Part shown: positions 21,755 to 45,303 of the stretch, one piece after another
Position numbering within the stretch: the first letter of the stretch is position 1
Layout of the letters: the number at the start of each line of letters is the position of its first letter
Origin: Podarcis gaigeae
Taxonomy: Eukaryota
NCBI GenBank assembly: GCA_964106915.2
Contig: OZ066928.1
Length of the DNA: 51,829 nucleotides
Reading direction: 5' to 3' (one strand)
The notes under the pieces: model-generated
The model's input: only the letters and a program-made list of their open reading frames with translations
Databases searched by the model: none
Told to the model about the DNA's origin: nothing
Translations under genes and position numbers: made by a program

Positions 21755-21918
21755 TTGCAGTATTCCTCTGAATACCAGCTGCTGGCAGTCCAAGGTGGGG
21801 GCAGAACTGTTGCACTGAGGTCCTCTTTGTGGACTTCCCATAGGCATCTGGTTGACCACTGCAAGAAGAGGATGCTGGTCTGGGGCCCCCTTTGGCCTAA
21901 TCCAGCAGGGGTCTTCTT
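21755..21918 (+). mobile_element. CR1 3' UTR fragment
   Basis: gcatctggttgaccactgcaagaagaggatgctgg...ttggcctaatccagcagggg; same family as 35150-35282 and 37497-37752. Confidence 0.75.
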
Positions 21919-23988: not shown

Positions 23989-24547
23989 CATGGAATCATA
24001 GAATCATAGAATCATAGAGTTGGAAGAGACCACAAGGGCCATCGAGTCCAACCCCCTGCGAAGCAGGAAACACCATCAGAGCACTCCTGACATATGGTTG
24101 TCAAGCCTCTGCTTAAAGACCTCCAAAGAAGGAGACTCCACCACACTCCTTGGCAGCAAATTCCACTGTCGAACAGCTCTTACTGTCAGGAAGTTCTTCC
24201 TAATGTTTAGGTGGAATCTTCTTTCTTGTAGTTTGGATCCATTGCTCCGTGTCCGCTTCTCTGGAGCAGCAGAAAACAACCTTTCTCCCTCCTCGATGTG
24301 ACATCCTTTTATATATTTGAACATGGCTATCATATCACCCCTTAACCTCCTCTTCTCCAGGCTAAACATGCCCAGCTCCCTTAGCCGTTCCTCATAAGGC
24401 ATCGTTTCCAGGCCTTTGACCATTTTGGTTGCCCTCCTCTGGACACGTTCCAGTTTGTCAGTGTCCATCTTGAACTGTGGTGCCCAGAACTGGACACAGT
24501 ACTCCAGGTGAGGTCTGACCAGAGCAGAATACAGTGGCACTATTACT
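23989..24547 (-). mobile_element. CR1 LINE 3' end, 5'-truncated, ORF2 C-terminus intact (24076-24540)
   Basis: [23 protein letters not shown]...[16 protein letters not shown]...VFKQRLD; (TATGATTC)n tail. Confidence 0.97.
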
Positions 24548-24551
24548 AAGG

Positions 24552-24733
24552 CAAGAACATATGCAACTGCCTTGCACCAAGTTAGACCATCGATCCACTT
24601 AACTCACTATTATCTGAGGTGCCTGGCTGAGGCTCTCCATATTTCAGGTAGATGTCTCTCCCACACAGGGATGGAAGCTTGGTGCTTCTGCGTGCAAAGT
24701 AGATGCTCTGCTGAGTGAGCCGTAGCCCTTTCC
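24552..24733 (-). mobile_element. tRNA(Ala)-derived SINE with CR1-type tail
   Basis: aagaacata...ctgccttg tail and tgcaaagtagatgctctg...gagccgtagccc head, both reverse complemented. Confidence 0.7.
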
Positions 24734-37496: not shown

Positions 37497-37752
37497 AATA
37501 AGAGCTTACTGAATCAGGCCAGTGGCCCATCCAGTCCAACATCCTCTTCTCACAGTGGCCTGTTGGATCACATGCGCAGCGAAAGTGATGCCGAACCCAG
37601 TTCCATCTAAATCATCCATCAGAGGTTGATGGATTGATCCAACATGGCCAACCAGATTCCTGTGGGAAACCAGCAAGCAGGTTTCAAGTACAAGAGCTCT
37701 CTCCCCTTCTGTTCTTTCCAGCAACGGATATTCAGAAGAATTACTGCCTCTA
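37497..37752 (-). mobile_element. CR1 3' UTR fragment interrupted by an 84-bp insertion
   Basis: aagagcttactgaatcaggccagtggcccatccagtccaacatcctcttctcacagtggcc [insert] tggccaaccagattcctgtgggaaacc... Confidence 0.85.
37561..37644. mobile_element. 84-bp TG...CA element: minimal solo LTR or Ginger2/Tdd-type MITE
   Basis: Perfect 10-bp TIRs TGTTGGATCA / TGATCCAACA; perfect 5-bp TSD TGGCC (37556-37560, 37645-37649). The empty site is visible in other CR1 copies. Confidence 0.85.
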
Positions 37753-43049: not shown

Positions 43050-44787
43050 TTTTTTTTTATATAAATATTTATTAAGAATTTTTATAAGAAAAAAGCATAA
43101 ATAACAAACAACATTGCTTATGTCATACACAAAATTTCATAACTCCTTTGGACTTTCTCACATCTCCCGCTCCCACTTACATTGTTAAAAATTTTTTTCA
43201 AGCAAATTATCATCTTGTTTGCAATCTTATATCCACTCATTTAAATATAATCTGATAGTTCTCCCAAAGGATTTGTCTTTTCCTTTATCTCGCTTATCGT
43301 CTAGTTTCAATCTAGTTTAGTGGTGGCCAATTATTTATGATCAAGCATCCTTCTTAACATTCAATCAAATTACAATATTTTTGTAAATAAGTTTTAAATT
43401 TCTTCCAGTCTTCTTCCATCCTTTCTTCTCCCAGGTCTCGGATTCTGCCGGTCATCTCTGCCAGTTGCATATAGTCTATCAGCTGTATCTGCCATTCTTC
43501 CAGTGTGGGTAGATCTTGAGTCTTCCAATTTTTGGCAATAAGTATCCTTGCTGCTGTTGTTGCATACATAAAAAATGTTCGGTCCTTCTTTAACACCCCC
43601 TGGCCGACAATACCCAAGAGGAAGGCCTCTGGTTTCTTGGTGAAGGTATACTTAAATACCTTTTTCAGCTCATTATATATCATTTCCCAGAAGGCCTTCA
43701 CTTTAGGGCAGGTCCACCAGAGGTGAAAGAATGTTCCTTCATTTTCCTTACATTTCCAACATTTATTATCAGACGAATGGTATATTTTGGCAAGTTTAAC
43801 TGGGGTCATGTACCATCTATATATCATTTTCATTACATTTTCCTTCAAAGCATTACATGCAGTGAAGTTCAGCCCAATGGTCCACAACCTTTCCCAGTCC
43901 TCAAACATAATGTTATGCCCAATATCCTGTGCCCACTTTATCATAGCAGATTTAACCAGTTCGTCTTGTGTATTCCATTTTAACAGCAAGTTATACATTC
44001 TTGATAGTACCTTAGTCTTTGGTTCTAACAGTTCTGTCTCCAACTTCGATTTCTCCACCTGGAACCCTAGTTTTTTGTCATTTTTAAAACCTTCTTTAAT
44101 CTGGGCGTAATGTAACCAGTCTCGCACTTTACCCTCCATTTTCTCCAAACTCTGCAATTTCCAATTGTCACCGTCTTTTTCTAATATTTCCCAATATTTT
44201 GGCCATTTGGCCTCCATATTGGGTCTTTTTCGGGCCTTGGCTTCCAGAGGGGACAGCCACCTCAGAGTTTTGTTTTCCAATAAGTCTTTATATTTTGTCC
44301 AGACATTAAATACTGCTTTCCTGACAATATGGTTCTTAAAGGCCTTATTGATCTTAACTTTATCATACCATAAATATGCATGCCAGCCAAAAGCATTGTT
44401 AAAACCTTCCAAATCGAACACATCAGTGTCTTCAAGAAGTAGCCAGTCTTTTAGCCAGCAGAAAGCTGCGGCTTCATAGTACAGTTTTAAGTCTGGCAGG
44501 GCGAAGCCCCCTCTTTCTTTCGCATCAGTTAATATCTTAAACTTAATTCTGGGCTTTTTGCCCTGCCAGACAAATTTAGAAATATCTCTCTGCCACTTCC
44601 GGAAACACTCCGTCTTGTCCACAATTTGCAATGTTTGAAACAAAAACAACATCTTTGGCAATACATTCATCTTAATAGCAGCAATTTGGCCTAGCAAAGA
44701 AAGCTTCAATTTTGACCAACTGTCCAAGTCTCTCTTAATTTCAGACCAACATTTTTCATAATTATCCTTAAATAGACTCAGATTTTT
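43050..44787 (-). mobile_element. L1-clade LINE, 5'-truncated (about 1.74 kb), young
   Basis: Uninterrupted ORF2 C-terminus, about 300-nt 3' UTR, AATAAA (43068-43073) and poly(A); 13-bp TSD tttcggtttttca at 43037-43049 and 44788-44800. Confidence 0.97.
43354..44787 (-). pseudogene. L1 ORF2 C-terminal fragment (post-RT region and zf-RVT-like Cys motif); 5'-truncated
   Basis: LSLLGQIAAIKMNVLPKMLFLFQ, GGFALPDLKLYYEAA and CWKCKENEGTFFHLWWTCPKV. The first about 29 residues of the listed 506-aa ORF come from the flank. Confidence 0.9.
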
Positions 44788-45303
44788 TTTCGGTTTTTCA
44801 ATCCCCCGCGCCCCCCAGTCTTCAATTTGGTGGTTCAGGATCTGCAAACGACAGAGGTTCAAATTAGAATGCAAACTTAACCAATTTTCCCCACATCTCT
44901 AGAAGCATGTAGCAATATAATCTCTCTTGCCCTTTCCAAAGTCTATTTGAAATCAGACTATTCCCCCAATGATGGCAGCAGCAGCAGCAGCAGCTCCTTG
45001 TTGACAAATGCACTTTAAGGAAAACTGCCTTCAACCTCCTCCTTTTTGAGAGAGAGTAATTGCAAAGGAATTTCAGAAACTGTTCACTTTCAAGATTGCA
45101 TTTGTCTCTGGAGAGTAATTGTGTACAGTTGTATATTCTTGAAGCAGTATTTACAATCCTTTTTAGAACTTGCTGTTCAGTGAAGGCTTACGTCTGTCAC
45201 ATTTCATTATTGTGCAGGCACGTGCTTAACACCTTTTTTCACATCAAAACATCGCTATGCCAAAGCACCCACTAGCACAGTGCTGCTGCATGATGGAAAC
45301 TTT

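What the first reader, a model, noticed from the sequence alone, without database searches (positions are those of the whole stretch)
37556..37649. 84-bp TG...CA mobile element with 10-bp TIRs and 5-bp TSD, inserted in a CR1 3' UTR
Seen: TGGCC|TGTTGGATCA...TGATCCAACA|TGGCC. The CR1 copy at about 21840-21870 reads contiguously across this site (cagtggtc-aaccagatg on its minus strand), so this is a genuine insertion. Termini and TSD are perfect and CpGs are retained, suggesting it is young. It has two internal hairpins (ATCAC/GTGAT and ATCCATCA-gaggt-TGATGGAT). Known: TG...CA ends with 5-bp TSDs are made by retroviral-type integrases; Copia LTRs often read TGTTG...CAACA, and BEL, some Gypsy and Ginger2/Tdd DNA transposons give similar ends. 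The other MITEs with recognisable TSDs here have 8-bp or TA TSDs. Inference: an exceptionally small solo LTR or TRIM, or an undescribed integrase-mobilised MITE family in lizards.
Basis: partly seen in the sequence, partly recalled or inferred. Interest (0 to 1): 0.72.

Follow-up and report, generated by a model that had tools for sequence, protein, structure and literature searches.

The report
Shrunken Copia retrotransposon end-piece
This 84-base insert, found once in the genome, is the tail end of a roughly 530-base end-repeat of an old Copia-type jumping gene, likely capped with a short flipped copy of its own end during DNA repair, so it looks like a mini-transposon but is most likely a dead remnant and not a new mobile family.

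Summary
In detail: an 84-bp TG...CA insert with 10-bp inverted ends and a TGGCC duplication, in a CR1-like 3' end whose paralogues carry that word once. The interpretation mostly does not. Bases 9-84 are the right end of a ~510-550-bp LTR (65 right ends, 59 left ends), mostly solo with 5-bp duplications (31 of 45). Seven copies sit behind a polypurine tract, and the longer ones behind Copia RT/RNase H remnants. The 84-bp junction occurs once in the genome. It is not young: rank 19 of 45 in divergence, and the same junction is in two other species' contigs. Two further copies (76 and 399 bp, with target duplications) carry an inverted right end as their left end, so the 10-bp cap is likely a fold-back copy; plain deletion gives such ends in 0.28% of simulated products. 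Whether this arose after insertion or from aberrant cDNA at integration is open. The scan had not noted this sequence before. Mostly ordinary.

The parts
37556..37560 (+). Left copy of the 5-bp target-site duplication (TGGCC)
   Evidence: paralogous empty sites carry the word once
37561..37570 (+). Left cap: 8 bp identical to the parent LTR's left end, all 10 bp identical to the reverse complement of its right end; the last two bases (CA) also fit the internal side of the junction
   Evidence: junction single-copy
37569..37644 (+). Last 76 bp (U5 side, by position of the polypurine tract in other copies) of the ~530-bp Copia-type LTR
   Evidence: 85-93% identity to right ends of other copies; orientation
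37614..37634 (.). 8-bp-stem hairpin inherited from the parent LTR
   Evidence: perfect in 24 of 45 complete copies
37635..37644 (+). Right end of the LTR (TGATCCAACA)
   Evidence: 65 matches of the terminal 28 bp at up to 2 mismatches, control 0
37645..37649 (+). Right copy of the target-site duplication (TGGCC)
37497..37555 (-). Host repeat, tail side: short abundant CR1-like 3' end (start approximate)
   Evidence: (4574 candidates)
37650..37750 (-). Host repeat, body side (end approximate)

Best explanation
The 84-mer is a single-copy remnant of a ~530-bp Copia-type LTR insertion: it keeps the LTR's last 76 bp and the 5-bp target duplication, and its left cap is likely a fold-back copy of its own right end, probably made during repair of a break in an ordinary solo LTR early after insertion. 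Steps: (1) a Copia-type integrase inserted the element into a CR1-like 3' end, duplicating TGGCC (duplication shown; enzyme inferred from the family); (2) LTR-LTR recombination left a solo LTR, as in most of the family (inferred); (3) a break near base 455 of the LTR was resected, the 3' end folded back on a 2-bp TG/CA match, copied the terminal 8 bases, and this new end annealed to the LTR's own 8-bp left inverted repeat, deleting about 445 bp (inferred, snap-back SD-MMEJ-like); (4) it has sat there since and has not moved (single copy shown; immobility inferred). I put the identity (dead Copia LTR remnant) at about 0.95, the fold-back origin of the cap at about 0.72, and this whole chain at 0.45.
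For: 34 of 39 non-self hits to the 84-mer start at base 9 or later and continue upstream into a common ~510-550-bp element. 31 of 45 complete copies have a 5-bp duplication with 0-1 mismatch, and 8 of 11 more. Seven copies follow a polypurine tract (L017, L025, L030, L074, L075, L076, L137); the DNA upstream in four of them gave tblastn matches to the RT end/RNase H of an intact Copia ORF (e.g. 32% over 155 aa, E 4e-15; 35% over 128 aa, E 3e-13, small local database; ORF = RVT_2, Retrotran_gag_2, rve). The junction is found once: exact ends with a 55-85-bp gap, and 25 bases at up to 3 mismatches. Fold-back precedents in the same family, both with target duplications: L118 (76 bp; left 20 bp match the inverted right end at 18 of 20) and L122 (399 bp; 67-bp inverted right end), 2 of the 70 right ends examined. 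Simulated plain deletions of 13 real full copies to 40-120 bp give inverted ends of 10 bp or more in 145 of 51,057 products. Internal loss is common in this family: TSD-flanked copies of 184, 289 and 330 bp, and orphan left and right ends. Snap-back synthesis from TG/CA primers that lengthens an inverted repeat is described in PMC5728401 (passages read).
Against: The cap exceeds the family's 8-bp repeat by only 2 bases, so a blunt deletion, or a deletion at a TGGA match in the minority subtype (3 copies) plus one substitution, also fits; this copy was picked because it looked like a MITE, which inflates the 0.28% argument. The arms of L122 (12 differences in 67 bp) and L118 (4 in 20) are as diverged as random family pairs (mean 14.3%), which favours formation at or very near insertion. 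No ortholog with the full LTR at this site was seen. No element with two LTRs was found, so step 2 is not shown. Perfect ends, perfect duplication and three CpGs lean younger than the family average.
Confidence: 0.45

Rival explanations
1. Made at integration: integrase inserted two right (U5) ends in inverted orientation, from a cDNA that folded back during reverse transcription or from two incomplete cDNAs in one complex, and host repair trimmed and joined the tails. The 84-, 76- and 399-bp copies would be by-products of abortive reverse transcription.
For: All three have two right ends and a 5-bp duplication. Arm divergence in L122 and L118 is as old as the family. No inverted left-left pair among 59 left-end matches. 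Ten copies carry internal DNA on their left (seven behind the tract, plus L078, L200, L201) and none of 70 right ends shares an internal-type right flank; the only two copies with the internal start begin at the same base with no LTR before it. L074 and L076 show 4- and 7-bp target-like duplications at the truncated side, L076 with an inverted copy of flank DNA.
Against: One-ended retroviral integrations usually give much larger duplications than 5 bp (PMC5041404, passages read). A 76-84-bp duplex is short for one complex to hold both ends (own knowledge). Orphan ends occur on both sides (6 left-only, 10 right-only without internal DNA among the 20 loci), so later deletion is common. I found no paper showing such products in vivo (listings).
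Confidence: 0.27
2. Plain internal deletion of a solo LTR joining base 8 to base ~455; the two extra inverted bases are chance.
For: Simple deletions with short direct matches exist in the family (L010, L020, L081). L020 breaks at ~463, and L112 and L116 are cut at 459 and 455, so this CA-rich spot breaks often. L109 keeps only about 27 bp of left end. The internal sequence at the junction resembles the left end (TGG in register).
Against: Needs the left break exactly at the edge of the 8-bp repeat and two matching bases: 145 of 51,057 simulated products; the junction has no microhomology to the left end as it stands; two clear fold-back cases exist.
Confidence: 0.24
3. A mobile 84-bp family: tiny solo LTR, TRIM/SMART or integrase-mobilised MITE.
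For: Clean ends, 10-bp inverted repeat, 5-bp duplication. Solo LTRs of 79-87 bp with 5-bp duplications exist for SMART elements in grasses (PMC3281118, passages read).
Against: Single junction genome-wide; the sequence is a piece of a larger LTR; L118 is of similar size but has a different junction; no direct pair of 84-mers (one search found one copy).
Confidence: 0.03

Closest known systems
Solo LTRs of Ty1/Copia retrotransposons; nearest intact relative here is the 4.77-kb Copia family at L071-L073
   Same: TG...CA ends, 5-bp duplication, polypurine tract before the LTR, RT/RNase H remnants 32-50% identical to the L072 ORF.
   Different: The parent LTR (~530 bp) has no detected similarity to that family's 253-256-bp LTR; its 2.1-kb internal part shows only RT/RNase H traces; no two-LTR copy was found; the window copy keeps 16% of the LTR.
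SMART / TRIM solo LTRs (PMC3281118, passages read)
   Same: About 84 bp, TGT...ACA, 5-bp duplication.
   Different: There the 85-bp unit is the whole LTR and occurs paired and in many copies; here it is a one-off fragment of a larger LTR.
Snap-back SD-MMEJ repair junctions (PMC5728401, passages read)
   Same: A deletion whose junction becomes part of a longer inverted repeat, primed by a 2-3-bp match; L118 also has filler resembling neighbouring sequence.
   Different: Shown experimentally in Drosophila near a cut site; here inferred from old genomic copies over 450 bp, with a 67-bp arm in L122.
Aberrant one-ended retroviral integrations (PMC5041404, passages read)
   Same: One clean integrase-made end, the other truncated or joined to element DNA in either orientation.
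   Different: Their host duplications are usually much longer than 5 bp, whereas all three capped copies here keep a 5-bp duplication.
Ginger2/Tdd DNA transposons (PMC2836005, passages and Discussion read)
   Same: TGT-type ends; TDD-4/5 make 5-bp duplications.
   Different: Inverted repeats of about 50-180 bp and mostly 4-bp duplications; no RT. Here the repeat is 8-10 bp and the ends belong to an LTR next to RT/RNase H remnants.

Membership tests
Ty1/Copia LTR (parent element) | TG...CA LTR with short inverted ends and 5-bp target duplication | tested here: met
   31 of 45 complete copies with 0-1 mismatch; 8-bp perfect inverted ends in 19 of 45
Ty1/Copia LTR (parent element) | Polypurine tract directly before the 3' LTR | tested here: met
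   seven copies
Ty1/Copia LTR (parent element) | Copia-type RT/RNase H at the 3' end of the internal region | tested here: met
   tblastn to an intact RVT_2/rve/Retrotran_gag_2 ORF; the remnant alone gave no Pfam match
Ty1/Copia LTR (parent element) | Two direct LTRs around the internal region | tested here: not met
   no second LTR within the 8.3-9.4 kb upstream in L031, L033, L070, L074, L075, L076; only about 1 kb seen for L137; none before the internal start in the two copies that have it. This lowers 'a complete element survives', not the Copia origin.
Ty1/Copia LTR (parent element) | Primer-binding site after the 5' LTR | tested here: inconclusive
   the site used by L071-L073 was not found after this LTR; the shared internal start begins TGGTTCAGAG, primer-site-like by recall only
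TRIM / SMART | The short unit is the whole LTR and occurs as direct pairs around a short internal part | tested here: not met
   84-mer is a fragment of a ~530-bp LTR, one copy
MITE | Terminal inverted repeats and target duplication | tested here: met
   10 bp and 5 bp
MITE | Many copies of uniform size and junction at independent sites | tested here: not met
   one copy
Ginger2/Tdd | Inverted repeats of about 50-180 bp | tested here: not met
   8 bp in the family, 10 bp here
Ginger2/Tdd | Ends shared with an integrase-only autonomous element | not tested
   no search for Ginger integrases was run; the ends are shared with an LTR next to RT/RNase H remnants
CR1 3' end (host repeat) | Octamer tail in the 3' UTR (PMC4316615, passages read) | tested here: met
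   ACATAAGA-type repeats at the tail of paralogues
CR1 3' end (host repeat) | Continuity with CR1 ORF2 | tested here: inconclusive
   no long copy among 20; one weak peptide link in L031
Any named Dfam/Repbase family | Match to a library consensus | not testable with these tools

The most novel reading that the evidence does not exclude
Copia integrase in a vertebrate germline recurrently integrates abortive cDNAs that carry two U5 ends, leaving 76-400-bp elements with true terminal inverted repeats and clean 5-bp duplications: LTR retrotransposons directly spawning MITE-shaped elements, with the window copy, L118 and L122 as three independent products, and the 3'-only elements as their one-ended siblings.
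Probability: 0.27. Interest if true: 0.5.

Novelty: new member of a known kind. Interest (0 to 1): 0.22.

Why it matters
As it most likely is, it matters little: an eroded solo-LTR remnant, and a caution that short TG...CA elements with inverted ends and 5-bp duplications can be LTR debris that structure-based MITE searches would misfile. The insertion and its junction are shared by related species, so it could serve as a phylogenetic marker. If the capped copies were made at integration, they would be a genomic record of abortive reverse transcription and a concrete route from an LTR to terminal inverted repeats, a step that PMC2836005 (Discussion read) calls unclear for the origin of Ginger1 transposons. 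Six searches (listings seen, open-licence library only) showed no paper on such capped LTR remnants.

Tried and rejected
Structured RNA: Rfam gave one chance-level match outside the insert (E 1.7). A primer site like that of the intact Copia family after this LTR: no match. Pfam on the RNase H remnant: none. One search queried a flank by wrong coordinates and is uninformative. Looking for a long CR1 copy to tie the host repeat to ORF2: one search hit another repeat, one search found nothing, searches gave only short copies. A second LTR upstream of tract-preceded copies: none. Left-left inverted remnants: none seen in the list or the loci (arms under 22 bp would escape). In one search, joints that skip the insert come from the very abundant host repeat and are not evidence of an empty orthologous site; the contigs of X5 and X9 cross the right junction with only 30 and 28 letters on the inner side, under the tool's 31-letter rule, so I count them as weak. 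In one search one poorly aligned copy was dropped before ranking. Earlier scan notes did not bear on this.

Full report
Observation. Window 37561-37644 is an 84-bp segment from TGTTGGATCA to TGATCCAACA between two TGGCC. The perfect inverted repeat is exactly 10 bp. The host is a short, very abundant repeat (4574 first-look candidates); 20 of 20 copies examined carry the target word once, 15 exactly TGGCC, as does the window copy near 21856. The insertion and its 5-bp duplication are real. The host has octamer tails as described for CR1 3' UTRs (PMC4316615, passages read), but continuity with ORF2 is only weakly shown.

What the 84-mer is part of. A genome search gave 40 scored matches of 81 candidates; 34 of the 39 non-self matches begin at base 9 or later. 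Their upstream DNA aligns with each other and defines a ~510-550-bp element beginning TGTTGGATAT and ending TGATCCAACA. The one other hit over bases 1-84 (L028, 85%) is a 477-bp copy. Pattern searches found 65 right ends (28 bp, up to 2 mismatches, control 0) and 59 left ends (22 bp, up to 2 mismatches, control 2); these are lower bounds. Of 70 distinct right ends examined, 45 had a left end within reach: 20 had a perfect 5-bp duplication, 11 one mismatch, 14 three or more (five of these 14 follow a polypurine tract). Of 20 further left-end loci, 11 were complete and 8 of them had 0-1 mismatch. This is a family of solo LTRs.

Which kind. Seven copies follow a purine tract such as AAAAATGAGAGGGGG. 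Upstream DNA in L031, L033, L070 and L074 matches the RT end and RNase H of an intact 1339-aa ORF at L072 (for example 32% over 155 aa, E 4e-15, local database), which Pfam calls Copia-type (RVT_2, Retrotran_gag_2, rve, gag_pre-integrs). The remnant alone had no Pfam match. The internal part is about 2.1 kb and shows no other coding match, so the parent looks non-autonomous (inference). No copy with two LTRs was found.

Not a family of its own. The exact ends with a 55-85-bp gap occur once, and the 25 bases over the junction occur once at up to 3 mismatches. The family's inverted repeat is 8 bp (19 of 45; one has 9, none 10). The ATCAC/GTGAT hairpin is absent from all 45 copies and is created by the junction; the other hairpin is the parent's (24 of 45).

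Not young. Over the last 68 bp the window copy's mean distance to the others is 0.123, rank 19 of 45, and its nearest relatives differ by 7.4%; 25 full copies differ pairwise by 14.3% on average (one copy dropped for poor alignment). Contigs of two other organisms span the left duplication and the junction without gaps (X14: 37526-37624, 4 differences; X3: 37502-37631, 3 differences), and X14's flank differs at 13 of 306 bases; two more runs cross the right junction weakly (4 of 24 listed runs laid). Against this, the ends and duplication are perfect and three CpGs remain, matched by only 2 of 45 copies; a perfect duplication is common in the family (20 of 45).

How it shrank. Ordinary internal deletions exist: 184, 289 and 330 bp with duplications. 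But two copies have an inverted right end as their left end. L118 is 76 bp between TGGCT repeats; its first 20 bases match the inverted right end at 18 positions. L122 is 399 bp between ATATT and GTATT, with a 67-bp inverted arm. The window cap fits the same pattern: 10 bases equal to the inverted right end, overlapping the internal side by CA. Enumerating plain deletions of 13 real full copies down to 40-120 bp gave inverted ends of 10 bp or more in 145 of 51,057 products; since this copy was chosen for its look, that overstates the case, and I leave plain deletion at 0.24. The mechanism I favour is snap-back synthesis during break repair, which lengthens an inverted repeat and can be primed by TG/CA (PMC5728401, passages read), using the LTR's 8-bp end repeat to close the deletion. 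All of this is inferred from end states.

The open rival. The arms of L122 differ at 12 of 67 bases and those of L118 at 4 of 20, as much as random family pairs, so these events date to the family's active period. Internal DNA was seen on the left of ten copies and on the right of none; the only two copies with the internal start begin at the same base with no LTR before it; L074 and L076 show short target-like duplications at the truncated side. This pattern would follow if incomplete cDNAs with a good U5 end were integrated. However, one-ended retroviral integrations usually duplicate far more than 5 bp (PMC5041404, passages read), and orphan ends occur on both sides. I give this 0.27.

Comparison with known kinds. 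Solo LTRs of 79-87 bp with 5-bp duplications are known for SMART elements, where that is the whole LTR (PMC3281118, passages read), so even the size would not be unprecedented. Ginger2/Tdd elements have 50-180-bp inverted repeats (PMC2836005, passages and Discussion read), which is not met. Dfam and Repbase could not be searched, so the LTR family may already have a name. Searches (listings and abstract starts) showed no paper on LTR remnants capped by an inverted right end; one search showed none on this family; the library lacks most subscription journals, and no supplements were read.

Verdict. A real insertion, but a single, old remnant of a Copia-type solo LTR rather than a new mobile element. 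Interest 0.22; the at-integration reading would deserve about 0.5 if true.

Noticed in passing
L118 (G000:C3, near 40171869) and L122 (G000:C15:34756443-34756841): Two copies of the same LTR, 76 and 399 bp, whose left end is an inverted copy of the right end, each with a 5-bp duplication. In L122 both arms differ from other copies at one site in a way that suggests a shared earlier change followed by CpG decay (inference).
   Followed up: partly
L070 and L033 (internal start), L031, L074, L075, L076, L137: Seven elements have internal DNA, purine tract and 3' LTR but no 5' LTR seen; L070 and L033 start at the same base, the others are cut at different points.
   Followed up: partly
L076 about 90-200 bp upstream of its LTR; L074 at its 5' junction: L076 has a 7-bp word on both sides of the element and an inverted copy of flank DNA at the truncated end; L074 has 4 bases matching its right flank at the junction.
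   Followed up: partly
L078:8115-8543 (coordinates as): An inverted LTR piece (299 to 209) sits between an RNase H remnant and LTR bases 184-529, another fold-back-like rearrangement.
   Followed up: no
L090, L108, L109: Three different inserts ending in CCCTG abut the same LTR word TTCTAAAT, suggesting a preferred site for another small transposon (hAT-like by recall).
   Followed up: no
L071, L072, L073: A young intact Copia family: 4.77 kb, LTRs of 253-256 bp that are 97.7-100% identical within an element, ORFs of 1231-1339 codons; at least 150 RVT_2 matches in the genome.
   Followed up: partly
L200, L201: Two copies join internal DNA directly to LTR base ~203-206, from different internal points.
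   Followed up: no
window 24076-24603 (-) and 43354-44898 (-): Stop-free frames of 175 and 514 aa that read like LINE ORF2 C-termini (labels recalled); the first is followed by a (TTCTATGA)n tail unlike the host repeat's.
   Followed up: no
L031, a 281-aa stop-free frame: Reads like a single-exon claudin (label recalled), a few kb from a truncated element.
   Followed up: no
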